DNA of 64,000 nt, taken from positions 434-64,433 of the forward strand of contig CAZLPW010000005.1 in the NCBI GenBank assembly GCA_964561495.1. The letters run 5' to 3'. This DNA is from an uncultured bacterium (GTDB lineage Bacteria > Fidelibacterota > Marinisomatia > Marinisomatales > UBA1611). How positions within the stretch are numbered: position 1 is the stretch's first letter; each line of letters starts with the position of its first letter. Shown one piece after another: positions 35,230 to 59,563 of this stretch. The notes below the pieces were generated by a model. It saw only the letters and a list, made by a program, of their open reading frames with translations, had not been told where the DNA came from and searched no databases. Position numbers and translations under genes: made by a program.

Positions 35230-36425
35230 GTTAAACATTCTCCAAAACAAACAGGTAGAAGCAAAGTATCCATATCACTAACAGTAAGTGATCTATCATT
35301 ATGTTGCCCAACACTACAATAATCTTCTAAAACCTCCCAGCCACCTTGCCATGTATTTGGGAAATACCCATTTCTGAATTTGTAAGTATAACTAGAATGA
35401 GGAGGAAGTATCAAAGTGATTCCCCAAATACTTGAATCCACTGATTGATTCATCTGAATTCCTCCTGGCTGACCAGAACCTAAATTACCCCCTGACAACC
35501 AAACACCAGTCTCTGAAACATTTTGATTTTTCATATCTACTTTAAAAGTTACACTAACATCTTTATAATTATCAGATTTTTCAAAAACTCTAACATAATC
35601 AACTAACATCCTCATTGGAAAGGCACTAGGAGAAACGCCCTGCGCGCCACCCCAATCTCCACCAATCGCAAGATTTAAGATAATATAATGGGGCTCGTCA
35701 AACGGCCATTTTCCAGTGTCTCCATCACTATCATTGTAAACAAAAAAATAAGCTTCATTATCTATTAGATAGCGCAGATAGTGTGGACTCCACTGAAGAG
35801 AGTAAACATGAAAAGAGTCTGTAGCTGTTGATAAAAATTTTGATCCCGATTTTTGGGTATTGCTCATATGATTGTATTCCTCAGTGTGGATTGAACCATG
35901 TATCATTCCATCATCAAATCCAACATGTTCCATGATATCAATCTCGCCGCAGTCTGGCCAACCAATTGTCGATATACTTTCACCTAGCATCCAAATTGCA
36001 GGCCAAGTTCCCTTACCTTTAGGCAGTTTAGCCCTCACATCAAAACGACCATATGTTCTCGATACCTTATTATCAGTGTTAATTCTACCAGAGGTATAGT
36101 CTGAACTATATTCAGTTCCTGTATAATCAGTACCATAATAACCAGGCTCAACAAGACCCTGTAAAACTAAAATACCATCCTCAAGAAAAATATTGGTGTC
36201 TCTGTCCGTATAGGCCTGTAACTCATTGTTAACCCACCCTGGTTGCCATCTCAGTTTATTCCACTTGGAAATATCTAACTCACTTCCATCAAATTCATCT
36301 GACCATACCAAATCCCAGTCATCATTTTCTAATAAATTTGAATCATTATGCCCTTGTCTTTCATCATCATTTTGACACCCGAAAATTGAAAATGAAAAAA
36401 TCATTATTATTAAGAAATTAATCAT
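35220..36425 (-). CDS. GH16 laminarinase-type lipoprotein with a C-terminal carbohydrate-binding-like domain
   Basis: Lipobox IFGC. WSDEFDG, GRFDVRAKLPKGKGTWPAIWMLG and the catalytic GEIDIMEH (ExDxxE). The C-terminal beta-sandwich is VSVTFKVDM...YTYKFRNG. Confidence 0.9.
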   Translation of the reverse strand: MINFLIIMIFSFSIFGCQNDDERQGHNDSNLLENDDWDLVWSDEFDGSELDISKWNKLRWQPGWVNNELQAYTDRDTNIFLEDGILVLQGLVEPGYYGTDYTGTEYSSDYTSGRINTDNKVSRTYGRFDVRAKLPKGKGTWPAIWMLGESISTIGWPDCGEIDIMEHVGFDDGMIHGSIHTEEYNHMSNTQKSGSKFLSTATDSFHVYSLQWSPHYLRYLIDNEAYFFVYNDSDGDTGKWPFDEPHYIILNLAIGGDWGGAQGVSPSAFPMRMLVDYVRVFEKSDNYKDVSVTFKVDMKNQNVSETGVWLSGGNLGSGQPGGIQMNQSVDSSIWGITLILPPHSSYTYKFRNGYFPNTWQGGWEVLEDYCSVGQHNDRSLTVSDMDTLLLPVCFGECLTCE

Positions 36426-36454
36426 TAAAACCTATTCTTATATTTAGCCAGAAG

Positions 36455-37546
36455 CTATTTCAAAAAAAGGATATCTTCTACCTGAGAGTAGTCTTGATTA
36501 TGAATGCGTAAATAATAAGTTCCAGAAGATACTTGGTTGCCGCTTCTATCTGAGCCATTCCAAAAAATATTATTTTCCCCACGATTTAAAAACTGATATT
36601 CTTGGGATTTTATTTCTTTACCTTTTATATCATATATTGTAAAAGAGATTATCCCAGATTCTGACAAAAACACAGGCAATGTAATATTATGGTTAAATGG
36701 ATTTGGATAGGGACTACCTAAAGATAATTTAGATGGCAATTCTTGAGTTTGAATCAAAAGAGGATCTCCATTATATCCTGTCTCCTGTGGAGTCGTTAAA
36801 CACAGAATGAGATATCCTGACTCAAAAACAACATTGCTATAAATAAGATCTGAGTTATTGCCATCCCAAGTATGATTGGCCTTGGACCAGCGCGATGTAT
36901 CATAGTAGTCGAATTCATCTTCCCAAAATAATATAAAATTATTGTCCGTTCCTGCATTGCCAGAATTTGGCACGTATGCGTAGTATTTAACCCAATCATA
37001 AAAAGCATAGACAGGTAAAATACTTGGATTAAAATCTCCGACCCAGTCATCATAAATAGGTTGCCAAATATTCATCATAAGTTTTTGATAGTGATACATT
37101 GAATCAGCATAAAAATTATTTACTGTTCGAATTAATTGATCATCTATAAAAAATTTGACATCTTCATTAGTCCACTCGATTACGTAGATATGAAAGTCTT
37201 CATGTGGATTGACATTCAGTTCTACCAACTCTGGAAGGTCCCACGCATTTTGTATGATAAGGTTGGTCTGGACTTTATCATCATAATTACCCAACCACTC
37301 AAAATCAATCTCATTCCAATAGCTATTACTTGTGTGCCCTTCTTCCCAAAAATCTCGATAAGTGAAAAATGAACTAACCACACCATTTCCATAGGCAGAC
37401 TTCATTCTTACTTCGAACCTACCATAGCGGTATGTGTCATCTGTCCTTAATTCTCCACCTTTGTATGGTTTACAAAAAACAATAGAAACAAGAACAAAAT
37501 TTATGATAATATTTTTCAGTAAATAATTTTTATTCATAATTAACAA
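36455..37546 (-). CDS. GH16 beta-glucanase (ExDxE, licheninase-type motif) with a T9SS sorting domain
   Basis: YRYGRFEVRMKSA...SSFFTY and NEIDFEWLG. CTD: PYPNPFNHNITL...DILFLK. Confidence 0.88.
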   Translation of the reverse strand: MLIMNKNYLLKNIIINFVLVSIVFCKPYKGGELRTDDTYRYGRFEVRMKSAYGNGVVSSFFTYRDFWEEGHTSNSYWNEIDFEWLGNYDDKVQTNLIIQNAWDLPELVELNVNPHEDFHIYVIEWTNEDVKFFIDDQLIRTVNNFYADSMYHYQKLMMNIWQPIYDDWVGDFNPSILPVYAFYDWVKYYAYVPNSGNAGTDNNFILFWEDEFDYYDTSRWSKANHTWDGNNSDLIYSNVVFESGYLILCLTTPQETGYNGDPLLIQTQELPSKLSLGSPYPNPFNHNITLPVFLSESGIISFTIYDIKGKEIKSQEYQFLNRGENNIFWNGSDRSGNQVSSGTYYLRIHNQDYSQVEDILFLK

Positions 37547-37643: not shown

Positions 37644-39119
37644 TCACCTTATCTTACTTCCAAAATCTAGCCTATCATCTGTTGTTAAAATTGGAAAAGA
37701 AGGGACTAAAATAGGATATGGAACTCCTCTCTGGTTAACCATCATATCCGTGCTGGTTAGCTTAATCTTTTCAAACGCACCCATATTAATTTTTATCGTT
37801 TCGGAGTATGCACTCTGGAGAGAATCTATTATAGGATTCATAAACACCAGCCAATCACCCTGATTATCAATTTGTTGATTTTTTTTCCTTACACTGGATA
37901 CATATTTTTTGCTTTTGGATACATCACTCCACATATTATAGTTCAGATTAACGCTCCAATTTTTATCAAGTCCCTTATTGTAACACTCTTTTGTAACCTC
38001 TATATCTCGGATAAGGTCTGCAATAGCGAATCGCAATTGTTCTGGGAATTCGCTACGATTCATTTTCCGTTTTCTAAAGACAAAAGGATGGGATTTTAAA
38101 TGCTGATTTAACTCCTCAACAGTCCAAGGCTTACCATCATAGTCTAGTATTATAGAGCTGGGATTGATATCATTATCTTCAACATTAAAGGTAAACATAT
38201 TATCATCAATCTTATCATCATCCCAAAGCATCTGGTTCAACATTTTTTTCTTGGATGCATCTACTTTAAAGAAATAATCAGCGGCTTTTTCAGAATAACT
38301 GTAAAAAACATCAGAATTAAGATTCATTTTTTTACCACTCATTAAATCTTTTACTGATTTAAGGTACGCATTTTTTGCTTTTTTATCAGTAAGCCTTTCT
38401 TTTACATCGTTCCATAGAATATTTTTATCGTATTCTGTAATCTTTATCTGGTCCTTCCAGCTAACAACTTTCATCAAAACAAATGTACCTTCCTCACTTT
38501 CAAACGGTCCTAATAACCGACCTTTGAAAATACTTTCACTAAATAAAGCATCATGTATTTCATCTAGCTCTCTGTTAAACCAATCAATTTCTTTCGTAGG
38601 TGCATTTCCGCTCCATAGGACATTATGTATGGAATCTAAAGGCACACCAGAAGAGTCAAGCTTCATTATCTTATTAGCTATTTCGAGATTAGGCAGATTT
38701 AAAAACTGAACCTTTACCATTCTTCCAGAAAACTTATACGCATCTTTTAATTCTTTTTCTGTTAGATTAACTTTTGAATGAAACTCTTCAGAAAAATAAA
38801 TCTGGCGCATTGCCTGCTCTCTCCGCCCCTTTAAAAAAGACTCTAAATTTTTGTCGGGAACATTATCTTCGTTCTTGGCATATTCCATTGCGATTAATTT
38901 TTCACTAATCAACGAATTTAAAATTATTTTTTTGTGAATGTAATTGTCTTGCCTGCAATAGTCAGGACGTATTGTATACTCTGATCTTCTAATGAAGTCT
39001 TGTACCGTAATTATACTAGGACCAACCTTTGCTAGAATGATTTCTTCTGGTATTTGGGAATGCTTTGTACAACTAAAAAAGGAAATAAAAAGGATAACTA
39101 AGCGATATAAAAACCCCAT
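37644..39119 (-). CDS. hypothetical lipoprotein with a SurA-N/chaperone-like N-terminus
   Basis: Lipobox FFSC. ILAKVGPSIITVQDFIRRSEY resembles the N-terminal segments of SurA/PpiD, but I saw no parvulin motif. It is the last gene of the receptor operon. Confidence 0.4.
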   Translation of the reverse strand: MGFLYRLVILFISFFSCTKHSQIPEEIILAKVGPSIITVQDFIRRSEYTIRPDYCRQDNYIHKKIILNSLISEKLIAMEYAKNEDNVPDKNLESFLKGRREQAMRQIYFSEEFHSKVNLTEKELKDAYKFSGRMVKVQFLNLPNLEIANKIMKLDSSGVPLDSIHNVLWSGNAPTKEIDWFNRELDEIHDALFSESIFKGRLLGPFESEEGTFVLMKVVSWKDQIKITEYDKNILWNDVKERLTDKKAKNAYLKSVKDLMSGKKMNLNSDVFYSYSEKAADYFFKVDASKKKMLNQMLWDDDKIDDNMFTFNVEDNDINPSSIILDYDGKPWTVEELNQHLKSHPFVFRKRKMNRSEFPEQLRFAIADLIRDIEVTKECYNKGLDKNWSVNLNYNMWSDVSKSKKYVSSVRKKNQQIDNQGDWLVFMNPIIDSLQSAYSETIKINMGAFEKIKLTSTDMMVNQRGVPYPILVPSFPILTTDDRLDFGSKIR

Positions 39120-39128
39120 TATTCATCA

Positions 39129-40199
39129 CTAGAATGTAAGACCTACAGTATAGGCCTGAATATTACCCAGAATTCCCATGGTCTTGTAAGTATAGTCAAT
39201 GGTCAGTGCTTTATTATTAAGAAAATAAAGTTTAACCCCTGCTCCAGTTGCAAAACCAAAATCTTTATCATCAGTATTTAAATTTTTCATACCACTTTTT
39301 AAACCACCCCTAAGACTGACCTCACCAAATCCAGGAATCTTATTATCTAAAGAGGCACCAATATTTATTGACTCAGCATTATTATTAGGATGAAGAGCAT
39401 CAGCCGAGATAATAAGATCCATACTATTTGTAACTATCGGCTTTAAAGAAATACCTATTCTAAATATAAGAGGCAACTCCCATTCCGAGGTTCTAAATTG
39501 ACCAGCTACATCCCCATAGTTTCCTTCTTCATACTCTGAAATATCAATAGGCTGATAGCTATCAATTCCATCATATTTCATTCTGGTACCATAATTAGAG
39601 ATACTCATACCTATATTCATTCCATCTTTATTTTTACCAGTAAATGAAAAAAAACTTGTATTAACTAACACACCAAGATCAACAGCAAAAGCGCTTGCTG
39701 AGCTGTGCCATATATTTGAGTTAATATATTTTAATGACGATCCGAATGAAAACCAGGAGACAATCTTCCTTGAAAAAGTGAATGCAGCGGCCACATCAGA
39801 AGCTTGAAACAATTCACCAGTACCTTCTTGGTACTCTAGATTCGTTACCTCCATTTCACCATAATCCAGGTGAGTAATACCAAAACCTATGACCCCAACT
39901 TTTGGAATCACCATAGCCCCACCTGCAAACAACATATCTATATCGACAAACCAAGGTTGAATCATAAAAAGCGCTGAAGATTGTTTTAGACTAGATAGTC
40001 CTGCAGGGTTCCAGTATATCGAAGAAACATCATTTGCTACGGCAACATAAGCCTCTCCCATTGCATTTGCCTCACTACCAACACCAATTTCTAAAAAATT
40101 AGCAGCGGTTGTTCCGTAGCGATTTATTGTTTGACTATACATAATATTTAAGCAGGAAAAAGCGAAAATCATTAGAATTATTATAAGATTATTTTTCAT
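39129..40199 (-). CDS. PorV/PorQ-family outer-membrane beta-barrel
   Basis: GTTAANFLEIGVGSEANAMGEAYVAVANDVSSIYWNPAGL is the family N-terminal signature. The protein ends in ...YTVGLTF with a terminal Phe. Its start overlaps the upstream stop in an ATGA. Confidence 0.7.
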   Translation of the reverse strand: MKNNLIIILMIFAFSCLNIMYSQTINRYGTTAANFLEIGVGSEANAMGEAYVAVANDVSSIYWNPAGLSSLKQSSALFMIQPWFVDIDMLFAGGAMVIPKVGVIGFGITHLDYGEMEVTNLEYQEGTGELFQASDVAAAFTFSRKIVSWFSFGSSLKYINSNIWHSSASAFAVDLGVLVNTSFFSFTGKNKDGMNIGMSISNYGTRMKYDGIDSYQPIDISEYEEGNYGDVAGQFRTSEWELPLIFRIGISLKPIVTNSMDLIISADALHPNNNAESINIGASLDNKIPGFGEVSLRGGLKSGMKNLNTDDKDFGFATGAGVKLYFLNNKALTIDYTYKTMGILGNIQAYTVGLTF

Positions 40200-43100
40200 T
40201 TAATCACCGCAAATTTTCCAACTTTTTCTTTACCTGTTTCAATTGAATCTATGTGGTATATATACATCCCAGCAGCTATTTCTAAATTTTCTCTTGTTAA
40301 CATATCCCAATGAATTATGCCATTTTCGGGTTTGTTATTTACAATAATCTCATCAACCAAAACACCACTTACTGTAAAAATTTTGATTCTACAATCTGCA
40401 GGAATGTGAGTAAACATTATGCGTCTACGTTGATTTAAAAACTGATTTGCAACCGCTGACTCCATCATATTCGTCATAACATATGGATTCGGAACTACCT
40501 TAATACTATCCATATCGATCTTAACACTATCTGCGTCTAACTCAGTCTCTTTGTTAATTGTAAACCTAATAGTATCTGTATTAAAAAAAGGCCGCCTCCA
40601 GTCTACCTGAAAAACATCACCAGCTTCAGGATAATTCAAGGCTGAATCAAGTTGAAAATCAATAATAAACGCAGTCGCTCGCCACCTGCTCCCTACAGTA
40701 GCACCGACAAAAATTCTGTCTAATGCAATCTCAAAGGTCCCGTTCTCATTTACATCATGAACTATAAGATCCATTATAGGAAATTGGCCAGTTGCTGTAT
40801 CAATAAATGAAGTATTCTGAACATAAAAATTAACAGCGGGCTCTGTTATTTTATTTGAACCTATTGAACTCCCATTTTCATCTCTTACAGTGCCTGACCT
40901 GGCTATTCCAACATAGGCTGAATCATTATCCGTGAAAACAATATGATACCTCCAAGCGAGCTGAAGTGCTTGCTCAACAGTTGGGGTTACCCTCATGTTA
41001 CCATAACCATTTATCCATCTTGAACTATCAATACTATACTCAGGAAATTCTAAATCTGAATTAATTTCGATTTGCAGACCATCAAAAACATCGGTATATA
41101 TAGTTCGGTCTGGATTTAAAGTCCAAAAGTCTGAGGTATCACGATAGACCAAGTTTTGACCAATATATTTTGATGTATCTTCTGAGTATACCAACACAGT
41201 GCTATCAGTGACGTCAAAAACTTTTATACCATTTGTGACATATTGAAAACCGTATTCATATCCACTTATCGTTTCAATCTTATCTGCTAAAAAGGTTAAC
41301 GCATATTCGTGACCCTGTTTTAGACTTCCTTGTGCGCGGATTAGAGGACTCACTGATCCAGACCCTAGCAAATTTGATGGTATCATATCTAAAGAAGGTG
41401 GAATATAACCTGCGGCACGCTGATGGGGAACAACAACGGCAACATTTTTCCCAACAGAACGTACCTCTTCAGCTTCATCAAGCTCTATAACCGCATTATT
41501 TTCTGATGGTGCAATCCCTGGACCAATATCAGGGGCACCAAAGTCATAGGCTACAACAGCATAGTAATAGGTTCTACCATTTTGAACCGTATTATCTACA
41601 AAGATATGAGATATCCCGTTATCAGTGCCTAGGTTATATCCCATACCATTAACCAAACCAAAATCAGTGAATCCTGTAATCCCATCTACGAGGTCACACT
41701 GATATATCGGTTTCTTGAACATCGGCGTTCCATAACCATCGGTAATTATTTCAGGATCGGACATATATTTATCCGTTGATCTATAGATTTTATATCCCTC
41801 AAAATCATTAATATTTCCGACAAAAGGATCACGCGTCTTTGTATCCGCTACATCATCCCAGGTTAGAATTACTTTATTATCACCAGCTGTAGCAGTAATT
41901 GTTGGCATCTCTGGTGGCTGTGCAAAACGATAGTCTTTTTCGTATATAACCTGAACAATCCTCTTTAATTCATACAAAGCAGGCGCGGTGTGATCTGCCG
42001 AACTAAGGCCCTCAAGAGGATCATATGAATGGAGCTCTGACATCGATATTCTTTCAACTCTTCCCTGATAAAGAGGAAATGGGCCTGATGCAAAGACCTC
42101 AACCAAATTAGATACATTATCAACATACTCTTCAAGCGAGTCCACGCCTATAACACCCCACATTGCCTGATCATTCTTAAACCAGGTTGTTTCATTAGAG
42201 GGAGCGTGGCTGGGTATAGGAAACATACGAAATGCTGTTAAACCAACCATATCAGACTCTGACACATCTGTTGTGTTGAAGTTAGGCTCACAGCCTACAC
42301 CCTCTAAAAAATCTGGCTTGTGATTACACTCTGATCCATCTAAGTCTGGACCGTTATAGTTTAACTCTCCAGGACCAACCCCATCTATACCTATATCATC
42401 ACCATAGCTTTCTGATAGTTGATATATTCCGTCACCATTTAAATCTTCACCATCTTGCCAATCTTGATCCTCATCTGCGTCCCAATGATCTTTAAGATCC
42501 TCAACATTCAGTTTATAAAATTCTAAAAATGCATTCAGATCTGCTATCCCCTCTGTCGCTCCTATAATGGCCGTGGCTTCATTATCTCTTTTCTCATCAA
42601 CCAAACCATCATTATCGTTGTCACGATAATCATAAGCCAAACCAGGACTTTCTAAATAAGCAAAACCCATCACACCCGTTGGGAGTCCACCTGCTCCTAT
42701 CCCATTAATATCCCAGGAATATGCCATATCTATCTGCTTATTAAAATATCCAAGATCATCATCACCGTCTCCACCGATAGAATTATCAAGCCAATAACCA
42801 AAGGCGACGTCCCTCAGATCATAGTCTGAAATATTAGCGATAGAATACTCCCAAAATATTGCGTCTCTGGCCTGTGGATTATTCCATTGAAACCCTCTGA
42901 CTGATACCCTAAGACCAAGACCACCCCAGGGAGCGCCTGGTTGTATGGTTACATCAGGCTTTATATCACCTATATAGTGACCAGGCCTGGGATAGTATTT
43001 GACATCATCTTCTACGCCTAAATATTCTTGATCTTGGGCATCGTTTACGACGTAATAAGATTCTTGATCAGCATAGGTAACTCCTCTACCAAAGCGGCCG

Positions 43101-43666
43101 TTCCACTCGCCCAACCACTTTGTTTCAAATCCAGTGGATGGCCAGCCGTTTAAAGGCCATGAACTAGGTAAATTCGATAAAGCTGGATACTCTCCAGTTT
43201 CATTAAAATATCCAAACGCGGGATAAAAACCCCACTCTACTGTACCAGTAGGATCAAGATCCATTTCCTCTCTGTAGCTAGTTTGTAGATAGTATAGAGT
43301 GTGACGTTCTTTATTAGGATCAAAAAGATCTAATGGATCAGTTATAGGAATGGTGTCCACTGTCCCTGCGTCTCCGTCATCTTCAATATATACCTTCGCG
43401 CCTACCAAGAGACCAATACCATCTGTCATTTTCAAACCATTAGGATTATTCGGCCATTTGGATACGTTTACCCTTGGCCAGTCAGAGAGTTCAGTTGTAT
43501 TTCTAAAATAAATATAAACTCTATTGCCTGTCATATAGCCCTCTTTCTCAGCAGCAATATCACCCGCTGGATCCTCTGGCCCCTGGTACTCTTTACCCTG
43601 CGAAAAAAGAAGATGCAAGGCAAGAAAAAACCAGGCCAATATTTTTACTAAATTTTTATTCAACAT
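40196..43666 (-). CDS. uncharacterised 1156-aa secreted protein with acidic Ca-binding-like repeats, an FN3-like domain and a variant CTD/FlgD-Ig-like tail
   Basis: A signal peptide without a lipobox Cys. DNDNDGLVDE and DADEDQDWQDGEDLNGDG repeats. FN3-like segment PEMPTITATAGDNKVILTWDD...RTYYYAVVAYD. The tail is VVPNPYV...RIKIFTVSGVLV...GMYIYHI...KFAVIK. Its ATG overlaps the receptor's stop (TAATG). Confidence 0.6.
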   Translation of the reverse strand: MLNKNLVKILAWFFLALHLLFSQGKEYQGPEDPAGDIAAEKEGYMTGNRVYIYFRNTTELSDWPRVNVSKWPNNPNGLKMTDGIGLLVGAKVYIEDDGDAGTVDTIPITDPLDLFDPNKERHTLYYLQTSYREEMDLDPTGTVEWGFYPAFGYFNETGEYPALSNLPSSWPLNGWPSTGFETKWLGEWNGRFGRGVTYADQESYYVVNDAQDQEYLGVEDDVKYYPRPGHYIGDIKPDVTIQPGAPWGGLGLRVSVRGFQWNNPQARDAIFWEYSIANISDYDLRDVAFGYWLDNSIGGDGDDDLGYFNKQIDMAYSWDINGIGAGGLPTGVMGFAYLESPGLAYDYRDNDNDGLVDEKRDNEATAIIGATEGIADLNAFLEFYKLNVEDLKDHWDADEDQDWQDGEDLNGDGIYQLSESYGDDIGIDGVGPGELNYNGPDLDGSECNHKPDFLEGVGCEPNFNTTDVSESDMVGLTAFRMFPIPSHAPSNETTWFKNDQAMWGVIGVDSLEEYVDNVSNLVEVFASGPFPLYQGRVERISMSELHSYDPLEGLSSADHTAPALYELKRIVQVIYEKDYRFAQPPEMPTITATAGDNKVILTWDDVADTKTRDPFVGNINDFEGYKIYRSTDKYMSDPEIITDGYGTPMFKKPIYQCDLVDGITGFTDFGLVNGMGYNLGTDNGISHIFVDNTVQNGRTYYYAVVAYDFGAPDIGPGIAPSENNAVIELDEAEEVRSVGKNVAVVVPHQRAAGYIPPSLDMIPSNLLGSGSVSPLIRAQGSLKQGHEYALTFLADKIETISGYEYGFQYVTNGIKVFDVTDSTVLVYSEDTSKYIGQNLVYRDTSDFWTLNPDRTIYTDVFDGLQIEINSDLEFPEYSIDSSRWINGYGNMRVTPTVEQALQLAWRYHIVFTDNDSAYVGIARSGTVRDENGSSIGSNKITEPAVNFYVQNTSFIDTATGQFPIMDLIVHDVNENGTFEIALDRIFVGATVGSRWRATAFIIDFQLDSALNYPEAGDVFQVDWRRPFFNTDTIRFTINKETELDADSVKIDMDSIKVVPNPYVMTNMMESAVANQFLNQRRRIMFTHIPADCRIKIFTVSGVLVDEIIVNNKPENGIIHWDMLTRENLEIAAGMYIYHIDSIETGKEKVGKFAVIK

Positions 43667-46446
43667 TAAAAATTAACACCTAGAGCAAGTTTTACCATCC
43701 TCGGAGCTGAAAACATTGATGGATTTTTTATTCTATCTTCAAAATCATTAAAATCACTGCGATGCCCTGCATAATCTGTCTCCCTTATTATGGCTGTATA
43801 TGCTCTACCAGTTTCACTATTTACGCCATACTCATTTAGCCTGTCTAATAAGTTGTAAATAGTGAGATCTAGATTACCATTATAACGGCCGAAGAGCTTA
43901 AACTTATAATATACTGTTGCGTCAACAGTGTAGTTAGATGGCTTATAATCATTGTTTGGGTATAAATTAATCCTAGACAATACACTCTCGCTCTGCGGCG
44001 AAAAAGTATATGGGGATCCCGAATTATAATATGCAGTTAGTGTAGCACCATATTGAGGGCCAAGATACATCAGAGTACCATTAAGTGTATGTCTCTGGTC
44101 CCAACTCATAGGTATAAAACGATTCACGGGATCCATATTATTCCCAGCTCGGCTAAAAGTCTGCGTCGGGTTATCCGCATTGCCCCTAGTATACTGTAGC
44201 GTATAGTTAATCATACCCTTAATCGAGCCATAGCCCAGATCAAGAGTGACCTCTAAGCCTCGTGCATTCCCATAGTCTTTATTACTGTATAGACCGTACT
44301 CAATCTGGTTATATGTAGAAATAATTTTTGCGCTAAGCAGGTTATATATATCTCGATAAAATAATGCAACATCGAGGTTTAAACCTCTCGCTAGCTCCTG
44401 CCACAAACCAATCTCATATGTGATTGTCTTTTCTGGCTCTAAAAGAACATTCCCCATCGTAGTGGAATAATCGCTAGGAGCAACCAAAAAACTTTTATTC
44501 TGATACATAGAGTAAAGCGGGGGCATCTGAAAAAAGTGACCATAGCTAAAGTGTAAAACAGCTTGATTTCCTAGCTGGTACGCAAACCCTATGCGCGGAC
44601 TTATCTGATCAATAATAGGTGCATCCATGTATTCAGACATCATTGAGTCTGGAAGCACTAACTGATTAGCAGGGTTACGTCTATCAGACGGATAATAACT
44701 TACAGGGTCAAAATAGTCATATCTTACTCCAAAATTAATGACCATATTTTCAAATTCCATTTTGTCTTGAAGGTAAGCTGCTGCTTCCTTTGGCTTAACA
44801 TTATAAATGTCAGCATATACAGTAGAATCAGGAAAAACTTCTGGCTCATAAAGCCAGTAATCAATATTTGACTGTCCATCATATTTATTTCTTATCTGTT
44901 GCCACTTATGTTTTACATCGTGAGTAATTCCCATAAACCCTAGTTTTAGATTATGATTATGAGTTGCCTGCCAGGTTAGATCAAACTTTACTGTCTTATC
45001 GATATCTCTGTGCTTCGTGTGCTCCTTCTGCTGACCACCCGTAAAAAACCCTGAACCATAATTTTCAAGGTGCCTGTCATGAATATACAGGTAAACAGTG
45101 TCGCCCACCTCATGGGGTAAGCCATCATGGTAGATTGGTATATTGGTCCCAAGATAATTAAACAATTGTTCATAGTTAGAACCATCAGCAATGATATAAG
45201 CCATGGGATCTTCGTGGAGATATGTTCCTGTATTATTTTCCATATAGGCTAGCTTGAGCTCATAGAAAAACTTCGGAGTAATCATGTGATTTAATTGAAA
45301 CGCAGAATAATAAGTCTTCTTATGATTTCCTGCTCTGCCATCTGGGTTATATTTCATCGAATGGTCATACCAATACCAAGTATCATCACTGTAAGAATTT
45401 AAAACAGAAAATCTTATCCCTTTGAAAATGTTAAACCCGAGCTTGAGTAATGAAGAAAAATTATCTCCTGTATTCATTGGTACGTAAGAGCTGTCGCCTG
45501 AATAAGTTGACCACCAATCCTCAGGATTATCTGATGTAAAATTACTAACATCATATGGTTTGAACCTTCTAAGACCATTGAGGTGCCCTCTATTATTCTG
45601 CTTACGGAAATTAGTGAAAAAGGTAATCCTTTCACCTACTAATGGACCACCAAAACTAAACTTTAAATCTTCACTCCGATTAAGATTAGGAGATAATCCA
45701 ATAAAAATATCATCACCATTGCTATCTGTACTATTGGTGTAATAAGATGATGTAGCTGCAGAAATCGAACCCTCAAACTTCGGCCCTCCGTCTCTTGTTA
45801 CCATGTTAACAACGCCACTCATAGCGCGCCCATACTCAGCATTAAACGTTCCAGTTATTACCTCTAAATCCTGTACTGCTTCAGGCTGAATATCAACAGC
45901 TGCGCTACCACCGCCAAAAGACTCATCAACCTGTACGCCATCCACCATGTAGGTTACTTCAGTATTCCTACCACCACGAAAGTGTCCATTAACCACTCCA
46001 GCCTGCATGTTAATAACGCTACCAATATTTTCAACAGCAAGTGCCTGAATCTCTTCGCCAGAAATATTCTTAATTGTTCCAGTTTGGTCTTTCTTCTGAG
46101 CCAATCGTGATACCTCAACGTTGACTACCTCACCCTCGATTACAGTTGATTCCATCTCAATATCAAGTGAGCTAGTTCTGTTTACAGAAACAACTAGCTC
46201 ATCTAACTGAACTGATTTGTAGCCTATCATATCAACTTTGAGTGTGTATTTCCCAGGAGGTATATTGATAATTGTAAATCTTCCATAAGCATCGGAGGCT
46301 GTACCATAAGGTGTGTTTAAAAGATAAATATTTGCCCCAGGAAGCGGTCCAATTGTTTCTTTTTCTAAAACAACGCCTGAGACTTTTCCCGTTGTCTGAG
46401 AAAAAGAAACAGAAATCATCAAGGCAAGGACTAAACGTTTTATCAT
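43666..46446 (-). CDS. TonB-dependent outer-membrane receptor with an N-terminal carboxypeptidase-regulatory-like domain (SusC-like architecture)
   Basis: GKVSGVVLEKETIGPLPGANIYL...GRFTIINIPPGKYTLKV, a plug segment (ISGEEIQALAVENIGSVINMQAGV), a long barrel, and the C-terminal ...KLALGVNF. Confidence 0.9.
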   Translation of the reverse strand: MIKRLVLALMISVSFSQTTGKVSGVVLEKETIGPLPGANIYLLNTPYGTASDAYGRFTIINIPPGKYTLKVDMIGYKSVQLDELVVSVNRTSSLDIEMESTVIEGEVVNVEVSRLAQKKDQTGTIKNISGEEIQALAVENIGSVINMQAGVVNGHFRGGRNTEVTYMVDGVQVDESFGGGSAAVDIQPEAVQDLEVITGTFNAEYGRAMSGVVNMVTRDGGPKFEGSISAATSSYYTNSTDSNGDDIFIGLSPNLNRSEDLKFSFGGPLVGERITFFTNFRKQNNRGHLNGLRRFKPYDVSNFTSDNPEDWWSTYSGDSSYVPMNTGDNFSSLLKLGFNIFKGIRFSVLNSYSDDTWYWYDHSMKYNPDGRAGNHKKTYYSAFQLNHMITPKFFYELKLAYMENNTGTYLHEDPMAYIIADGSNYEQLFNYLGTNIPIYHDGLPHEVGDTVYLYIHDRHLENYGSGFFTGGQQKEHTKHRDIDKTVKFDLTWQATHNHNLKLGFMGITHDVKHKWQQIRNKYDGQSNIDYWLYEPEVFPDSTVYADIYNVKPKEAAAYLQDKMEFENMVINFGVRYDYFDPVSYYPSDRRNPANQLVLPDSMMSEYMDAPIIDQISPRIGFAYQLGNQAVLHFSYGHFFQMPPLYSMYQNKSFLVAPSDYSTTMGNVLLEPEKTITYEIGLWQELARGLNLDVALFYRDIYNLLSAKIISTYNQIEYGLYSNKDYGNARGLEVTLDLGYGSIKGMINYTLQYTRGNADNPTQTFSRAGNNMDPVNRFIPMSWDQRHTLNGTLMYLGPQYGATLTAYYNSGSPYTFSPQSESVLSRINLYPNNDYKPSNYTVDATVYYKFKLFGRYNGNLDLTIYNLLDRLNEYGVNSETGRAYTAIIRETDYAGHRSDFNDFEDRIKNPSMFSAPRMVKLALGVNF

Positions 46447-46508: not shown

Positions 46509-46538
46509 CAAAAAAAGAGGGGTAAATAAATACCCCTC
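46509..46538 (-). terminator. Rho-independent terminator downstream of the multi-CBM gene
   Basis: The minus strand reads GAGGGGTA-TTTATT-TACCCCTC followed by T7. Confidence 0.8.
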
Positions 46539-46557
46539 CTTCTTATTTTTCTTTATT

Positions 46558-49029
46558 TTATTTCATTAAGACCATCTTCTGAGTAAGCGTTTTCCCCATA
46601 TACGCCAATTTATAAATATACAAACCAGAGGCAATGTTACCTGCATACCAATTGACAGAGTGATATCCAGCCGAGAGTTCTTTATCTACAAGATTCATGA
46701 TCTGCTGACCACGTAAGTTATAAATGGAGAGATTAACAGCCTGTGATTCAGGAATTGAAAATTCAATTGTAGTCCGTGGATTAAAGGGATTAGGATAGTT
46801 CTGGTGTAGTGCAAACTCTTTTACTATGATATCATCATCGGTACTCATAGTTGTGGCCTGATCACCGATCCATGTATTTGACCAAACTTCACAGGTTTGA
46901 TGGGCGTTATCATCATTAGTTCTAGACATAACCATGATTGCTTCCATCCCGTTACCATCATTATCGTGGATCATCGGCTCAAAAGGGATACGCATTCCAT
47001 TAGCTGGAGTCAGCCTAACATCATCGTCAATCACTATTGCATCTAAAGAGATCCGAAACTCAAAAACATAGTCCGGATTAAAAACTTCATGATAATAATT
47101 TCCATCACCATGCAGAGCAAGCGACCCCGCCCCATTATCTGAGGTAGCACCTAATGGATCAAAATATATCTTGTAGTCTGGCTCCTGGCCTCTTTCCATT
47201 CCAACATGCTTTGGGCCACGCTGGTCGTACAAACCTATGCACATTTGAACAACGTCTGAGGTCCACCAACCACCACTCTGATCATCAACGACAACGTTAT
47301 CTAAAATTTCCGCAGCTAGATAAAGATAATCATTATCAATCGCGACGTAAAAAGTGCCGTGCAAATCATTATCATCATCTACTGTACCAAATCCAAGATG
47401 TGGGGTGCCGTATGAATTATCTGTAGCGCCAATCATAAAAGGAGCTATACCGCTATCATACCACTCTGACAAATCACCATCTGCCGCAAAGGTTGAAGGT
47501 GGATCAAGAGATATTGTTGGTACGCCTTTAGCATTGTTCAAAACCGCCGCTTCGGTCACACCTGGGGCGCCAACATTGTTAGACGCATCTTTACAAGCTA
47601 CCGCATAGTAATAACTAACACTATCATCCACTAAAGGGTTAAACAAATAATGTATCGCATTACCAAGGCCCTCTAATACATTAGTAGCAATAATGTCAAC
47701 CGAAGAGTCGTTTATATCTGTGATCGGGGATGCGCTAGCGTATACATTATAGGTTTCTCCATCTTCCCCACCAACATCATCCCATGTTACCAAATTATAG
47801 TTTGATGCAGGTGTTGCAAATATACCCTCAACAGCCTCTGGAGGAACAACATCTAAGACACCCATACTCATAAGAAACATATCATCAAAAGCGTAATCAA
47901 CTTCCACACCATCCCAGCGCGAAGCTACAATAACCGCTGTTACTGTTTCGGCCCCCTGAGGCATTACAAAATCGATTGAGTGCTCTTCCCATTGATCAGT
48001 TAAGTTCAGAAACACATCTCCAGTTGTGCCAACTATTGTTCCTGCCACATCCTTTGCTTCAAGCTTAAATGCTGCACCCGCGATAGTATCACCTAGCACT
48101 ATTTTACCAAAGCCACTGAAACGCCAAGTTTCACTGGGTTGAGCGGGTATGCTATCTTCAGTGTAATAAACTGCCCAATTATCAGTTACACCAATGCTTA
48201 GATAATTATCACCAGCGTAGGCTACTGAAGCATCACTTAGGACTTCGACGTGACCGCCACCCATAGCAGAGCCCCAGCCCATTCCATCATCCTGAGCGTC
48301 AACAAGTTCGAATCCAGGATTTGTCAATTTATTTAACGATCCAGTTAGCCTAAAATCATCTAACACAACTGTGCCTGTTACGTGGTCACCATCTCCACCG
48401 CCACTAACGGAAAATTCGAAATGGAATCCACCAATAACATCCTTATCAAGCTCGCCATTTCCTGTCTCCCCAGCCCATCCAGTAAGATTAAATCCACCGC
48501 CGCCCCAATCATCATTTCGAACAAGAGGCATAGTAACAGTATTCCAGCCAGGTTCATTATCAAGTATATAGATGAAAGAATAATAATACTCTCCCAATCC
48601 ATTGTAATAAACTGAGTCGGAGATATCACCATAATCACTCAAATTTAGTCTTAGATGTACACGACCCGCAGAGTCTTGAGGTACGGAATTATAATAGGAG
48701 AATGAAATACTATCATATCCTGACCAATCCCATGTCGCCAATCCTTGAGTTGAGTCGCTACCTGCTGCCATGTGAAATATCTTTGTATAGCCTCCCCATG
48801 CCTCACTGTTGTGGACACTATAGTCAATTTGCATGGCTCCGTCGCCCTCTACTCCAGGTCCAGATGGAATGTAACTGATAGTCACATTACTAAGAGTTGA
48901 ATCTGAATTCTCAGAACGATCATAGCCCCAGTATCCTTCCTCTGGCGCACTATCAAAATTATTTATCATTTGTCCATTTAAAAAAACAGGCAACAGTATT
49001 AGCATTAATGATTTTAACAGTCTACTCAT
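46558..49029 (-). CDS. non-catalytic multi-domain glycan-binding protein (CBM4/9-like, FN3-like, CBM9/DOMON-like) with a T9SS sorting domain
   Basis: NPGFELVD...GWG is CBM4_9-like, YNVYASASP...YYYAVACKD is FN3-like, and DGDLSEWYD...FYVAIDNDYLYLAAEI is CBM9-like. CTD: NYPNPFNPRTTIEF...KMVLMK. I saw no GH catalytic motif. Confidence 0.6.
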   Translation of the reverse strand: MSRLLKSLMLILLPVFLNGQMINNFDSAPEEGYWGYDRSENSDSTLSNVTISYIPSGPGVEGDGAMQIDYSVHNSEAWGGYTKIFHMAAGSDSTQGLATWDWSGYDSISFSYYNSVPQDSAGRVHLRLNLSDYGDISDSVYYNGLGEYYYSFIYILDNEPGWNTVTMPLVRNDDWGGGGFNLTGWAGETGNGELDKDVIGGFHFEFSVSGGGDGDHVTGTVVLDDFRLTGSLNKLTNPGFELVDAQDDGMGWGSAMGGGHVEVLSDASVAYAGDNYLSIGVTDNWAVYYTEDSIPAQPSETWRFSGFGKIVLGDTIAGAAFKLEAKDVAGTIVGTTGDVFLNLTDQWEEHSIDFVMPQGAETVTAVIVASRWDGVEVDYAFDDMFLMSMGVLDVVPPEAVEGIFATPASNYNLVTWDDVGGEDGETYNVYASASPITDINDSSVDIIATNVLEGLGNAIHYLFNPLVDDSVSYYYAVACKDASNNVGAPGVTEAAVLNNAKGVPTISLDPPSTFAADGDLSEWYDSGIAPFMIGATDNSYGTPHLGFGTVDDDNDLHGTFYVAIDNDYLYLAAEILDNVVVDDQSGGWWTSDVVQMCIGLYDQRGPKHVGMERGQEPDYKIYFDPLGATSDNGAGSLALHGDGNYYHEVFNPDYVFEFRISLDAIVIDDDVRLTPANGMRIPFEPMIHDNDGNGMEAIMVMSRTNDDNAHQTCEVWSNTWIGDQATTMSTDDDIIVKEFALHQNYPNPFNPRTTIEFSIPESQAVNLSIYNLRGQQIMNLVDKELSAGYHSVNWYAGNIASGLYIYKLAYMGKTLTQKMVLMK

Positions 49030-49288: not shown

Positions 49289-50317
49289 TTGCGCACAACT
49301 CTTAAACACGTATCCGAAGATACTGGACTTTCCATCGCGACTGTATCCAGAGCTCTTCGTCGCAAACGAAGAAACTATTCCTCTAACGAAGAAAAAATCT
49401 ACGCATCAGCACGCAGACTGGGCTATCCATTTATAGGAAAAGATAAACACTCTGGTCAACTAACTATTGCCCTTGTGAGTGAGCTTTTTGGGGGAGAGTT
49501 CTATGCAAATTTTTTGCATGGGTTTTATAAAGCCAGTAAAAACACCTCCTCTGAGGTAGTAATCATTAACCTTGCAAAACATAGTGAAGACCCAATAGAG
49601 TATATTATAAGCTTAAGTAAGAAATATTCAGGAATCTGTCTTTTCCTTCCAAGCTTGGACAATAAAGATTATTTAAAAATAAAGGATGGGGTAGGCCAAT
49701 ATCCTATAGTTACACTCACTCCTATAAAAAATCCAAAGATTGACACAATCACATTTGACTCTTACGCTGGCGGATATATGATAGCCAAACACTTTGAAGA
49801 GCTTGGCTATAAAAATTTTGGTTTTATATCCGGCCCAAAGCATCCAATAATGGGCACATTTAAGCAACCACCTATAGATGCAATTTTTAGGAAAAATGGT
49901 TTTCTTGATCATATATCTGAAAATCCATCTCTCCAACTTGTCTGGACTTTTGATGGCGACTTTTCAAGCTCAACTGGTAGAGTTGCATTTGAAGACTTCA
50001 GCAAACGCAATCTAAATGATGTGGCTATTTTTGGCTGTAACGATGAAACGTGTTATGGGTTTATTAAAGGGGCAACAGAAAATGGTTACAAAGTACCCGA
50101 AGACTTCATTATAGCTGGATACGATAATCTTACATTCTCAGAAATAATAACTCCTGAGCTTACATCAATATATACTGATTTTTTTCTTTTAGGAAGTAAA
50201 GCGATTAAAATGATTGAAAACCTGATTGAGAACGAAAACGATAGCGTTGGCAATATAACTATGGTTCCTGTAAAGATTTTAAAACGAAAAAGTACAAATA
50301 TTCATACTTTGGACTAA
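49289..50317 (+). CDS. LacI-family transcriptional regulator (TTG start)
   Basis: HTH: LKHVSEDTGLSIATVSRALR. It is followed by a periplasmic-binding-protein-like sugar-sensor fold (IFGCNDETCYG, AGYDN). Confidence 0.88.
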   Translation: MRTTLKHVSEDTGLSIATVSRALRRKRRNYSSNEEKIYASARRLGYPFIGKDKHSGQLTIALVSELFGGEFYANFLHGFYKASKNTSSEVVIINLAKHSEDPIEYIISLSKKYSGICLFLPSLDNKDYLKIKDGVGQYPIVTLTPIKNPKIDTITFDSYAGGYMIAKHFEELGYKNFGFISGPKHPIMGTFKQPPIDAIFRKNGFLDHISENPSLQLVWTFDGDFSSSTGRVAFEDFSKRNLNDVAIFGCNDETCYGFIKGATENGYKVPEDFIIAGYDNLTFSEIITPELTSIYTDFFLLGSKAIKMIENLIENENDSVGNITMVPVKILKRKSTNIHTLD

Positions 50318-50335
50318 CTTAAAAGCATAAATAGA

Positions 50336-54247: not shown

Positions 54248-54251
54248 CACG

Positions 54252-58184: not shown

Positions 58185-58187
58185 GGC

Positions 58188-59543: not shown

Positions 59544-59563
59544 TCAAATTTCTTGAAAAAATA

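What the first reader, a model, noticed from the sequence alone, without database searches (positions are those of the whole stretch)
37644..46446. SusD-less glycan-uptake operon: TonB-dependent receptor, 1156-aa unknown protein, PorV-like barrel and SurA-like lipoprotein, translationally coupled
In Bacteroidota PULs the SusC-type receptor is followed by a SusD lipoprotein of about 550 aa. Here the SusC-like receptor, with a carboxypeptidase-regulatory-like N-terminus, is followed by a 1156-aa protein whose ATG overlaps the receptor stop (TAATG at 43664-43668). That protein has a type I signal peptide without a lipobox Cys, acidic Ca-binding-like repeats, an FN3-like domain and a variant CTD tail. 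Next comes a PorV/PorQ-family barrel whose ATG overlaps the preceding stop (ATGA at 40196-40199). Nine nucleotides later comes a 491-aa lipoprotein with a SurA-like N-terminus. The module is embedded among GH16, GH5 and CBM genes.

My hypothesis is that the giant protein is the functional counterpart of SusD or a surface glycan-binding protein. It would be held at the surface through its CTD-like tail by the dedicated PorV-like barrel, forming a receptor complex of a kind not yet characterised.
Basis: inference. Interest (0 to 1): 0.78.

Follow-up and report, generated by a model that had tools for sequence, protein, structure and literature searches.

The report
SusD-less glycan uptake gene triad
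A marine Marinimicrobia laminarin-utilisation locus holds a tightly coupled set of genes (outer-membrane TonB-dependent receptor, unannotated 1156-aa secreted protein, PorV-like barrel) that recurs next to sugar-degrading genes in at least seven named bacterial lineages and probably replaces the SusC/SusD sugar-import pair, though no experiment or paper found here describes it.

Summary
All four ORFs, both overlapping junctions and the glycan context are as described.

The window comes from a Marinimicrobia (SAR406) laminarin locus. It holds GH16 genes, GH5, GH30, GH1, a GH149 phosphorylase, a LacI regulator and an ABC importer.

The receptor → 1156-aa protein → PorV-like order is strongly conserved. 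In 80 genome loci, 51 of 65 fully observable cases keep it. These loci come from Marinimicrobia, Ignavibacteriota, Calditrichota, KSB1, Rhodothermales/Balneola, Krumholzibacteriia and Stahlbacteria. The neighbouring genes point to different glycans: starch, β-glucan, xylan, dextran and mannan.

The 1156-aa family is large (3203 representative clusters) and has no Pfam match and no curated name. A confident AlphaFold model (pLDDT 86.6) is almost entirely β. It is neither a SusD fold nor a recognisable enzyme. It ends in a variant T9SS C-terminal domain whose best matches are PorZ and PorU, the two cargos known to stay bound to PorQ and PorV.

The receptor is not a SusC/RagA-family member by HMM. 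The 491-aa lipoprotein is a SurA/parvulin-like chaperone found in only about a third of loci.

Best reading: a SusCD-analogous import complex that depends on T9SS. Physical interaction was not tested. No paper found describes it.

The parts
46511..46544 (-). Terminator-like GC hairpin plus T-run between the upstream CBM9-CTD gene and the receptor gene. It probably marks the 5' boundary of the receptor operon.
   Evidence: 14-pair stem, 5 GC pairs, T-run; sequence read
43666..46446 (-). TonB-dependent receptor, 926 aa: N-terminal carboxypeptidase-regulatory-like domain, plug and 22-strand-type barrel. It is not a SusC/RagA-family member by HMM.
40196..43666 (-). The 1156-aa 'BIG' protein: Sec signal peptide with no lipobox, and an all-beta multidomain body. 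It belongs to a large unannotated family. Its ATG overlaps the receptor stop (TAATG).
42662..43606 (-). BIG aa 21-335: conserved N-terminal beta-rich domain whose fold is unassigned. Foldseek gives weak similarity to GH94, GH116 and dextran dextrinase; reading this as similarity to their beta-supersandwich parts is an inference.
42242..42661 (-). BIG aa 336-475: acidic, loop-rich insert with invariant DxDxDG-type motifs. Ca-binding is suggested at motif level only. It is the most conserved segment (57% mean pairwise identity).
41432..41911 (-). BIG aa 586-745: conserved FN3/Ig-like beta-sandwich.
40538..41431 (-). BIG aa 746-1043: two beta-sandwich domains. This is the most variable part of the family (24% mean pairwise identity) and a candidate substrate-specific region (inference).
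40199..40537 (-). BIG aa 1044-1156: variant T9SS type-A-like C-terminal domain. It begins with a VVPNPY first strand, followed by an insertion of about 25 aa.
39129..40199 (-). PorV/PorQ-family 14-strand-type barrel, 356 aa. It is a family member but not an equivalog of PorV or PorQ. Its ATG overlaps the BIG stop (ATGA).
37644..39119 (-). 491-aa putative lipoprotein of the SurA/parvulin-PPIase chaperone lineage. The PPIase domain is no longer detectable here. It is an optional fourth member of the module.
46558..49029 (-). 823-aa CBM9/CBM4_9 protein with a canonical T9SS CTD. Homologues sit directly upstream of the receptor in several other loci. It is a candidate surface glycan binder.
33256..37546 (-). 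Downstream enzymes on the same strand: GH16-CTD (36455-37546), GH16 (35220-36425) and GH5-CBM6-CTD (33256-35250).
49289..62968 (+). Divergent arm of the same laminarin locus: LacI regulator, PA14-GH16, Opp-type ABC importer (SBP_bac_5, two permeases, ATPase), GH1, GH30 and a GH149 beta-1,3-oligosaccharide phosphorylase.

Best explanation
The receptor, the 1156-aa protein and the PorV-like barrel together form a dedicated outer-membrane glycan-import module. It does the job that SusC/SusD does in Bacteroidia, but it is built from different parts. In this window it serves laminarin.

Proposed sequence:
1. T9SS-secreted GH16/GH5 enzymes and the CBM9 protein bind and cut laminarin at the cell surface.
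2. The 1156-aa protein crosses the inner membrane through Sec and the outer membrane through the T9SS, using its variant C-terminal domain.
3. It is not released. It stays at the surface next to the receptor because its CTD remains bound to the co-encoded PorV-family barrel. PorU stays on PorV, and PorZ on PorQ, in the same way.
4. Its conserved N-terminal, acidic-loop and FN3 parts contact the receptor. Its variable beta-sandwiches (aa 746-1043) handle the substrate.
5. The TonB-energised receptor imports the oligosaccharides. The Opp-type ABC transporter, GH1, GH30 and GH149 finish the job.
6. The SurA/parvulin-like lipoprotein is an optional assembly chaperone.

Shown: gene anatomy, translational coupling, wide synteny, glycan context, all-beta fold, CTD homology and PorV-family membership.
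Inferred: the physical complex, CTD retention, which domain does what, and T9SS dependence.
For: Operon structure:
- The overlaps are 1 nt and 4 nt, with a terminator-like hairpin just upstream.
- Across genomes, the median gaps receptor->BIG and BIG->PorV-like are both 13 nt.

Synteny:
- The receptor lies immediately upstream in 63 of 73 observable cases.
- The PorV-like gene lies immediately downstream in 59 of 71.
- Both hold in 51 of 65.
- The 80 loci are labelled Marinimicrobia, Ignavibacteriota, Calditrichota, KSB1, Rhodothermales/Balneola, Krumholzibacteriia and Stahlbacteria.

Generic role rather than one substrate:
- Flanking genes carry CBM20, CBM48, GH16, GH66, GH9, GH10, GH3, GH94, GH43, alpha-amylase and GH130.
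- LacI regulators and ABC sugar importers sit in the same operons. The cultured Rosettibacter firmus is one example.

Cognate sets:
- Single assemblies carry several triads: L013+L034 on one Calditrichia chromosome, and L030 with two in tandem.
- The three proteins diverge in step. For L013 vs L034 the identities are 36/37/40%. For the window vs L007 they are 47/45/47%.

The CTD:
- hhalign gives 94.4% probability against canonical CTDs.
- The only NCBIfam hits are the PorZ (E=6e-5) and PorU C-termini.
- The top Foldseek PDB hits are PorZ 5m11 (E=1.8e-7) and PorU 6za2.
- The only profile-vs-PDB hit is the PorU CTD.
- PorU and PorZ keep their CTDs and sit on PorV and PorQ, and cognate PorV-like barrels have been proposed to protect CTDs (PMC10202324).

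Not an enzyme and not SusD:
- No family hit, and an all-beta model with pLDDT 86.6.

Conservation pattern:
- Conserved N-terminal domain, acidic loops, FN3 and CTD against a variable middle.
Against: - No direct or predicted protein-protein contact was obtained.
- The mirror-tree analysis shows all parts co-varying (r 0.4-0.8). The CTD-PorV correlation (0.57) is not specifically elevated.
- The BIG CTD is only modestly more conserved than ordinary CTDs from the same loci (49% vs 40% mean pairwise identity).
- The PorZ/PorU structural matches have very low TM-scores (0.07-0.13). They reflect about one domain, so they may only say 'this is a CTD'.
- CBM-CTD proteins encoded upstream could be the real glycan binders.
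- A few loci reorder the genes, for example L025 and L068 with receptor, PorV-like, then BIG, and L014.
- T9SS core genes are not in the window.
Confidence: 0.55

Rival explanations
1. The glycan-uptake role is the same, but the anchoring is ordinary. The PorV-like barrel is only a dedicated shuttle that carries the 1156-aa protein from the T9SS translocon to the sortase. The CTD is then cleaved, and the protein is either linked covalently to anionic LPS or released, like any type-A cargo. It acts as a surface glycan-binding protein without forming a stable complex with the barrel.
For: The C-terminus is homologous to canonical type-A CTDs. The CTD is only slightly more conserved than ordinary CTDs. 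There is no specific CTD-barrel co-variation. PorV is known as a shuttle (Glew et al. 2017, cited in PMC12578637).
Against: A general PorV would be enough for shuttling, yet each triad carries its own barrel that has diverged as much as its BIG and receptor. BIG and PorV-like starts overlap the preceding stops, which suggests stoichiometric co-production. The generic CTD models (PF18962, TIGR04183) do not reach E<=0.01 on BIG, whereas the PorZ and PorU C-termini do.
Confidence: 0.2
2. The 1156-aa protein, the PorV-like barrel and the SurA-like protein form a local secretion or attachment helper for the many CTD-bearing enzymes of the locus. This would be a PorZ/PorU-like accessory of the T9SS, and the receptor would act independently.
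For: The best structural and sequence matches are PorZ and PorU. The locus is flanked by CTD cargos: 24 of 47 downstream genes and 22 of 42 upstream genes. A chaperone-like PPIase is recurrently associated.
Against: The matches cover only about one CTD-sized domain (TMq 0.07-0.09). BIG has no peptidase domain as PorU does, and no detected beta-propeller as PorZ has. The strictest linkage is to the receptor, immediately upstream in 63 of 73 cases and often overlapping. One attachment complex per cell should be enough, yet genomes carry several diverged triads.
Confidence: 0.12
3. The 1156-aa protein is a new surface carbohydrate-active enzyme, or another hydrolase, whose catalytic domain is not yet in any database.
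For: Foldseek gives high-probability local similarity (0.93-1.00) to GH94, GH116 and dextran dextrinase chains. The N-terminal domain has many invariant acidic residues.
Against: The similarity is TMq 0.15-0.17. BIG has almost no helices, so it cannot share the (alpha/alpha)6 catalytic barrel of those enzymes. The conserved N-terminal domain is shared by loci aimed at chemically unrelated glycans: starch, beta-glucan, xylan, dextran and mannan. That argues against a single catalytic specificity. The invariant acidic residues fall in DxDxDG Ca-type loops.
Confidence: 0.08

Closest known systems
SusC/SusD (RagA/RagB) pairs of Bacteroidota polysaccharide utilization loci
   Same: A TonB-dependent receptor with an N-terminal carboxypeptidase-regulatory-like domain is followed immediately, often with overlap, by a gene for a surface partner. 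The pair is embedded among CAZymes, a regulator and inner-membrane importers. It is multiplied into paralogous sets for different glycans.
   Different: The receptor does not match SusC/RagA models. The partner is a 1100-1200-aa all-beta protein with a Sec signal and a T9SS CTD, rather than a ~550-aa alpha-helical TPR lipoprotein. A third obligatory gene encodes a PorV-family barrel.
PorU-PorV and PorZ-PorQ pairs of the T9SS attachment complex (Porphyromonas gingivalis)
   Same: A T9SS cargo with a CTD is paired with a PorV/PorQ-family barrel. PorU and PorZ retain their CTD and are held on the barrel (PMC10202324). BIG's C-terminus matches PorZ and PorU best. From my own knowledge, not checked here, porU and porV are adjacent genes.
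   Different: BIG has neither the C25-type peptidase of PorU nor a detected propeller as in PorZ. The pair is tied to a TonB-dependent receptor and to glycan loci, and it occurs in several copies per genome. CTD retention was not tested here.
PorP/SprF-family barrels encoded next to type-B CTD cargos (e.g. SprB-SprF in Flavobacterium johnsoniae)
   Same: A dedicated PorV-like barrel is encoded beside the specific cargo it serves (PMC10202324).
   Different: The barrel here scores as PorV/PorQ family (NF033709), and no PorP/SprF family appeared among its hits. The CTD is related to type A rather than type B. In a scan of 25 family members, only 3 gave weak CHU_C hits (best E=0.003), and the window protein gave none.
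SusD-independent TonB-dependent glycan loci (CUT loci) of Gammaproteobacteria such as Xanthomonas
   Same: Glycan-specific TonB-dependent receptors sit in CAZyme operons without SusD (review PMC13543919).
   Different: No conserved surface partner or PorV-like barrel is described for those loci. They have no T9SS.

Membership tests
SusC/RagA family TonB-linked outer membrane protein | Significant match to the SusC/RagA family HMM (TIGR04056; accession from memory) | tested here: not met
   NCBIfam scans at E<=0.01 and E<=10 list 12-13 TonB-receptor models and no SusC/RagA model. PDB sequence hits are only PqqU and YncD plugs, with no SusC-like chain.
SusC/RagA family TonB-linked outer membrane protein | N-terminal carboxypeptidase-regulatory-like extension before the plug | tested here: met
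   PF13715 at E=1.3e-17 covering aa 22-110, and PF13620 at E=8e-16.
SusC/RagA family TonB-linked outer membrane protein | Followed by a susD/ragB gene | tested here: not met
   The next gene is the 1156-aa all-beta protein. The same holds in 63 of 73 related loci.
SusD/RagB | Alpha-helical TPR-based fold of about 500-600 aa and a match to SusD Pfam families | tested here: not met
   No Pfam hit. The AF2 model (pLDDT 86.6) is almost entirely beta-strand with five short helices.
SusD/RagB | Lipoprotein signal peptide with lipobox Cys | tested here: not met
   The N-terminus MLNKNLVKILAWFFLALHLLFSQGKEY has no Cys. The family consensus ends ...AQ.
T9SS type-A CTD cargo | C-terminal domain of about 80-100 aa homologous to Por_Secre_tail (TIGR04183) | tested here: inconclusive
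   Against: PF18962 and TIGR04183 do not reach E<=0.01. For: hhalign of the family CTD against canonical CTDs from the same loci gives 94.4% probability, E=8.5e-8, over 66 columns. The PorZ and PorU C-termini also hit. The first strand plus an insertion of about 25 aa is not aligned.
T9SS type-A CTD cargo | N-terminal Sec signal peptide | tested here: met
   A hydrophobic helix spans aa 2-20 in the model and sequence.
T9SS type-A CTD cargo | Secretion depends on the T9SS, and the CTD is cleaved by PorU | not testable with these tools
   This needs genetics or proteomics. The only indirect evidence is that six other proteins in the window carry canonical CTDs, and that all carriers named to phylum or class belong to FCB-group lineages. 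That these lineages have a T9SS is from my own knowledge.
PorV/PorQ family (NF033709) | Score above the family cutoff over the full length | tested here: met
   197 bits against a cutoff of 90, with aa 30-356 aligned to model positions 1-326 of 326. The only PDB sequence hit is F. johnsoniae PorV 6h3i_F, E=1.4e-8.
PorV (NF033710) or PorQ (NF033711) equivalog | Score above the equivalog cutoff | tested here: not met
   PorV scores 89.2 bits against a cutoff of 250. PorQ scores 92.8 against 220. PorV2 scores 58.2 against 325.
SurA / parvulin-type PPIase chaperones | SurA N-terminal domain | tested here: inconclusive
   The window protein scores SurA_N_2 at E=1.4e-3, 18.9 bits against a cutoff of 28.5. 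Orthologues score 5e-5. Homologues in other lineages score SurA_N_3 at 1e-5 to 4e-4.
SurA / parvulin-type PPIase chaperones | Rotamase (parvulin) domain | tested here: not met
   No Rotamase hit was found in the window protein. Homologues found with a family HMM in L014, L068 and L067 carry clear Rotamase domains (E 1e-15 to 1e-22), and L081 has a weak one. The window protein therefore belongs to the lineage but has lost detectable PPIase sequence.

The most novel reading that the evidence does not exclude
The triad is a previously unrecognised class of outer-membrane nutrient importer. A TonB-dependent transporter works with a large cap or capture protein that is delivered by the T9SS. That protein is held permanently by its uncleaved CTD on a dedicated PorV-family barrel. 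This would be the ancestral or alternative counterpart of SusCD across the non-Bacteroidia FCB phyla, and a main route of laminarin uptake in oceanic SAR406.
Probability: 0.4. Interest if true: 0.88.

Novelty: new variant of a known kind. Interest (0 to 1): 0.74.

Why it matters
SusC/SusD is the hallmark used to find polysaccharide utilisation loci. PULDB and a September 2026 review of glycoside transporters list only Bacteroidota SusCD systems and Gammaproteobacterial receptors, and do not mention this arrangement.

A second conserved receptor-partner system would have three consequences:
1. It would make glycan-uptake loci discoverable in Marinimicrobia, Ignavibacteriota, Calditrichota, KSB1 and Rhodothermales/Balneola, which are currently annotated as 'hypothetical' at this position.
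2. It would give a handle on how abundant ocean SAR406 cells take up laminarin, a major marine carbon flux.
3. It would extend the role of T9SS CTD/PorV-like pairs from secretion and attachment to building a transport machine.

The 1156-aa family has 3203 representative clusters at 50% identity and no annotation. Cultured carriers such as Rosettibacter firmus make it experimentally tractable.

Tried and rejected
- **AF2 with a shallow alignment.** Using 32 sequences at 74-95% identity gave pLDDT 39.5 and was discarded. It was rescued with a 137-sequence alignment that included relatives at 35-42% identity.
- **Mirror-tree co-variation.** BIG subdomains were compared with the receptor and the PorV-like barrel over 46 triads. 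Everything co-varies (r 0.4-0.8), with no CTD-specific signal. The test does not discriminate.
- **'Unusually conserved CTD'.** The difference is only modest, 49% vs 40% pairwise identity against canonical CTDs, so this was not used as an argument.
- **Sequence searches for a solved relative.** phmmer and a family profile of BIG against PDB sequences gave nothing except a marginal PorU CTD hit. The 491-aa protein gave no PDB sequence hit at all.
- **Literature.** Ten searches plus targeted reading found no description of the triad. The reading covered Melioribacter, Caldithrix and SAR406 genome papers, a T9SS review, the Bacteroidota BAM paper and the 2026 glycoside-transporter review. Subscription-only papers were not searchable.
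- **BamG-type barrel.** I considered the PorV-like barrel as a FadL/BamG-type component of the BAM complex. I rejected this because of its strict adjacency to BIG and its PorV/PorQ-family score.

Full report
**1. Observation**

The four minus-strand ORFs are exactly where the finding places them:
- receptor, 43666-46446, 926 aa
- unknown protein, 40196-43666, 1156 aa (called BIG below)
- PorV-like barrel, 39129-40199, 356 aa
- putative lipoprotein, 37644-39119, 491 aa

The junctions read as stated. ...TTT TAATG TTG... gives a 1-nt overlap. ...AAATGAAA... gives a 4-nt ATGA overlap. Nine nucleotides separate the PorV-like stop from the next ATG. A strong terminator-like hairpin at 46511-46544 separates the receptor gene from the upstream CBM9-CTD gene. 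The four genes therefore look like the start of their own transcription unit.

**2. Source and context**

Close homologues of BIG (73-100% identity) come from marine metagenomes and are labelled Candidatus Marinimicrobia or Neomarinimicrobiota.

The locus is a laminarin-utilisation locus. On the minus strand it holds a CBM9/CBM4_9-CTD protein, the four genes, GH16-CTD, GH16 and GH5-CBM6-CTD. On the divergent plus strand it holds a LacI regulator, PA14-GH16 and an Opp-type ABC importer. These are followed by GH1 and GH30. Last is a 1134-aa ORF with no Pfam hit that is a GH149 beta-1,3-oligosaccharide phosphorylase (E=2e-300 to PDB 6HQ6).

**3. The individual proteins**

*Receptor.* It has CarbopepD_reg_2, Plug and TonB_dep_Rec_b-barrel domains. 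NCBIfam lists no SusC/RagA model for it, even at E<=10. PDB sequence hits are only PqqU and YncD plugs. It shares the N-terminal extension with SusC but is not a family member by HMM.

*PorV-like barrel.* It scores 197 bits on NF033709 (PorV/PorQ family, cutoff 90). It is far below the PorV, PorQ and PorV2 equivalog cutoffs. Its only solved relative by sequence is F. johnsoniae PorV.

*The 491-aa protein.* It has an FFSC lipobox-like signal and a sub-threshold SurA_N_2 match. Its close family is all 'hypothetical' Marinimicrobia proteins. More distant homologues in other loci carry SurA_N plus parvulin Rotamase domains. It therefore belongs to the SurA/parvulin chaperone lineage, with the PPIase signature no longer detectable.

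*BIG.* It has no Pfam family. Its only NCBIfam hits are of aa 1084-1156 to the C-termini of PorZ (E=6e-5) and PorU. It has no PDB sequence match.

**4. The BIG family and its structure**

An exhaustive HMMER search of 1.84 billion representatives finds 3203 clusters at E<=1e-3 and 424 at E<=1e-30. Most are 1000-1300 aa. Of 25 diverse members scanned against Pfam, only a few give weak CTD-type hits.

AF2 failed with a shallow alignment (pLDDT 39.5). It succeeded with a 137-sequence alignment that included relatives at 35-42% identity (pLDDT 86.6, pTM 0.78). The model shows:

| Residues | Feature |
|---|---|
| 1-20 | signal helix |
| ~28-585 | large beta-rich N-terminal region |
| ~336-475 | acidic, loop-rich insert inside that region, carrying invariant DxDxDG-type motifs |
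| 586-745 | FN3-like sandwich |
| 746-1043 | two further beta-sandwiches |
| 1044-1053 | short helix |
| 1055-1155 | beta-sandwich CTD |

Conservation is high in the N-terminal domain, acidic loops, FN3 and CTD. It is low in 746-1043, at 24% mean pairwise identity against 36-57% elsewhere.

Foldseek against the PDB ranks PorZ (5m11, E=1.8e-7) and PorU (6za2, E=5e-6) first. Next come FN3 arrays and macroglobulin-type proteins. GH94, GH116 and dextran dextrinase follow at high probability but TMq of only 0.15-0.17. The TM-scores show that each match covers about one domain.

A family profile against PDB sequences hits only the PorU CTD (E=0.03). hhalign of the BIG CTD alignment against canonical CTDs from the same loci gives 94.4% probability over 66 columns. 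The VVPNPY first strand and an insertion of about 25 residues are left unaligned.

BIG is therefore a T9SS-type cargo with a variant CTD. It is not a SusD fold and has no recognisable catalytic domain.

**5. Synteny**

A scan of one genome per species returned 167 confirmed relatives. The best 80 loci were fetched. Their record titles name Marinimicrobia (13), Ignavibacteriota (27), Calditrichota (10), KSB1 (3), Rhodothermales/Balneola (4), Krumholzibacteriia (1), Stahlbacteria (1) and Chlorobiaceae (1). The remaining 20 carry broad labels: 'Bacteroidota' or 'Bacteroidetes' (9), 'Cytophagia' or 'Chitinophagales' (5) and unclassified bacterium (6).

I called ORFs and searched them with the window proteins:
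- The receptor homologue is the immediate upstream neighbour in 63 of 73 observable cases.
- The PorV-like homologue is the immediate downstream neighbour in 59 of 71.
- Both hold in 51 of 65.
- Median intergenic gaps are 13 nt at both junctions, and 4-nt overlaps are frequent.

Exceptions are frameshift-split receptors (L026, L050) and local reorderings (L014, L019, L025, L068, L077).

The neighbouring genes differ by locus.
- *After the PorV-like gene (47 loci):* 24 T9SS-CTD proteins; CBM20 in 10; CBM48 in 6; 'Glycoamylase' in 5; plus GH16, GH66, GH9, GH10, GH3 and GH94.
- *Before the receptor (42 loci):* 22 CTD proteins, CBM9 in 11, alpha-amylase in 3, and GH43.

In cultured Rosettibacter firmus the order is LacI, CTD protein, receptor, BIG, PorV-like, PPIase-like, ABC sugar importer, GH130. 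A 3.7-Mb assembly, GCA_021651095.1, shows the same without the PPIase-like gene. The triad is thus a generic module attached to loci for many glycans, as SusCD is.

The SurA/parvulin-like gene occurs on the same strand in 25 of 80 loci. It usually lies directly after the PorV-like gene or directly before the receptor. It is recurrent but optional.

**6. Cognate sets**

Some assemblies carry several triads:
- L013 and L034 lie on one Calditrichia chromosome.
- L002 and L057 come from one Marinimicrobia bin. L002 is cut before a PorV-like gene and L057 before a receptor, so each is a partial locus.
- L030 has two triads in tandem, the second cut at the contig end.

The three proteins diverge in step. 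L013 vs L034 gives 36/37/40% identity for receptor, BIG and PorV-like. The window vs Ignavibacteriota L007 gives 47/45/47%. The window vs other Marinimicrobia paralogues gives 29-35%. Each BIG therefore keeps its own barrel over long evolutionary distances. A general shuttle would not need this.

**7. Mechanism**

*Shown:* tight operon coupling, conserved order, glycan context, PorV-family membership, CTD homology, and an all-beta non-SusD fold.

*Established knowledge:* PorV binds CTDs. PorU and PorZ retain their CTDs and are held on PorV and PorQ. Cognate PorV-like barrels (PorQ, PorP/SprF) have been proposed to protect CTDs from cleavage (PMC10202324).

*Inferred:* BIG is exported by the T9SS and held on its cognate barrel beside the receptor. 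There it acts as the receptor's extracellular partner, capturing or handing over oligosaccharide. The variable sandwiches would handle substrate and the conserved parts would make protein contacts.

I put this at 0.55. The rivals are:
- an ordinary cleaved and LPS-anchored glycan binder, with the barrel acting only as a shuttle (0.20)
- a local T9SS attachment or biogenesis helper (0.12)
- a new enzyme (0.08)

**8. What did not help**

- The mirror-tree analysis did not discriminate.
- The CTD is only modestly more conserved than ordinary CTDs.
- Multimer prediction could not be run.

**9. Novelty**

Ten full-text searches and targeted reading found no description of this triad. The September 2026 review of bacterial glycoside transporters discusses SusCD and Gammaproteobacterial receptors. 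It does not mention PorV, T9SS, Ignavibacteria or Marinimicrobia. Subscription-only literature could not be searched.

The parts are known kinds: a TonB-dependent glycan receptor, a T9SS cargo and a PorV-family barrel. Their conserved combination, and the BIG family itself, appear undescribed. I rate it a new variant of a known kind, with interest 0.74.

Noticed in passing
window 59564-62968 (+): This 1134-aa ORF (GTG start) has no Pfam hit. It is a GH149 beta-1,3-oligosaccharide phosphorylase: phmmer E=2e-300 to PDB 6HQ6, aligned over aa 5-1124. It completes a phosphorolytic laminarin pathway together with GH1 (56811-58184) and GH30 (58188-59543).
   Followed up: partly
window 51606-56814 (+): The inner-membrane importer of this laminarin locus is of the oligopeptide (Opp/Dpp, SBP_bac_5) type. 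The related mannan-type loci L081 and L082 use the sugar-type SBP_bac_1 instead.
   Followed up: no
window 46558-49029 (-), and L008, L009, L011, L012, L015, L016: The 823-aa CBM9/CBM4_9-CTD protein has strong homologues (E 1e-68 to 1e-154) directly upstream of the receptor in Ignavibacteriota and 'Bacteroidota' MAG loci that also carry GH16. It may be the substrate-specific surface glycan binder of beta-glucan-type triads.
   Followed up: partly
window 28800-31146 (-): Two ORFs overlap by 38 nt in different frames. One is a 341-aa protein with an AMPK1_CBM/CBM48-like domain. The other is a 452-aa alpha-amylase catalytic domain starting at TTG. Together they look like a single GH13 enzyme split by a frameshift or sequencing error. 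With the GH13/CBM48 gene at 31182-33200 they form an alpha-glucan cluster that abuts the laminarin locus.
   Followed up: no
window 26474-28840 (-) and 7221-9824 (-): Two further T9SS cargos are unrelated to glycan use: a CotH kinase with a lamin-tail domain and a CTD, and a Kelch-repeat beta-propeller with a CTD.
   Followed up: no
window 37644-39119 (-); protein P0406: The public (JGI) gene call for the 491-aa protein is 422 aa and starts at an internal Met. Orthologues of 487-497 aa support the longer form with the lipoprotein signal.
   Followed up: partly
L014 622-10250; L030 2-12382; L025; L068: Some loci show variant architectures. L014 has two BIG paralogues in tandem before the receptor. 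L030 has two complete triads in tandem. L025 and L068 have the order receptor, PorV-like, (x), BIG.
   Followed up: no
L082 13305-14336; L083 6404-7435: The PorV-like barrels of these loci also carry a precomputed hit to PF03687 (UPF0164).
   Followed up: no
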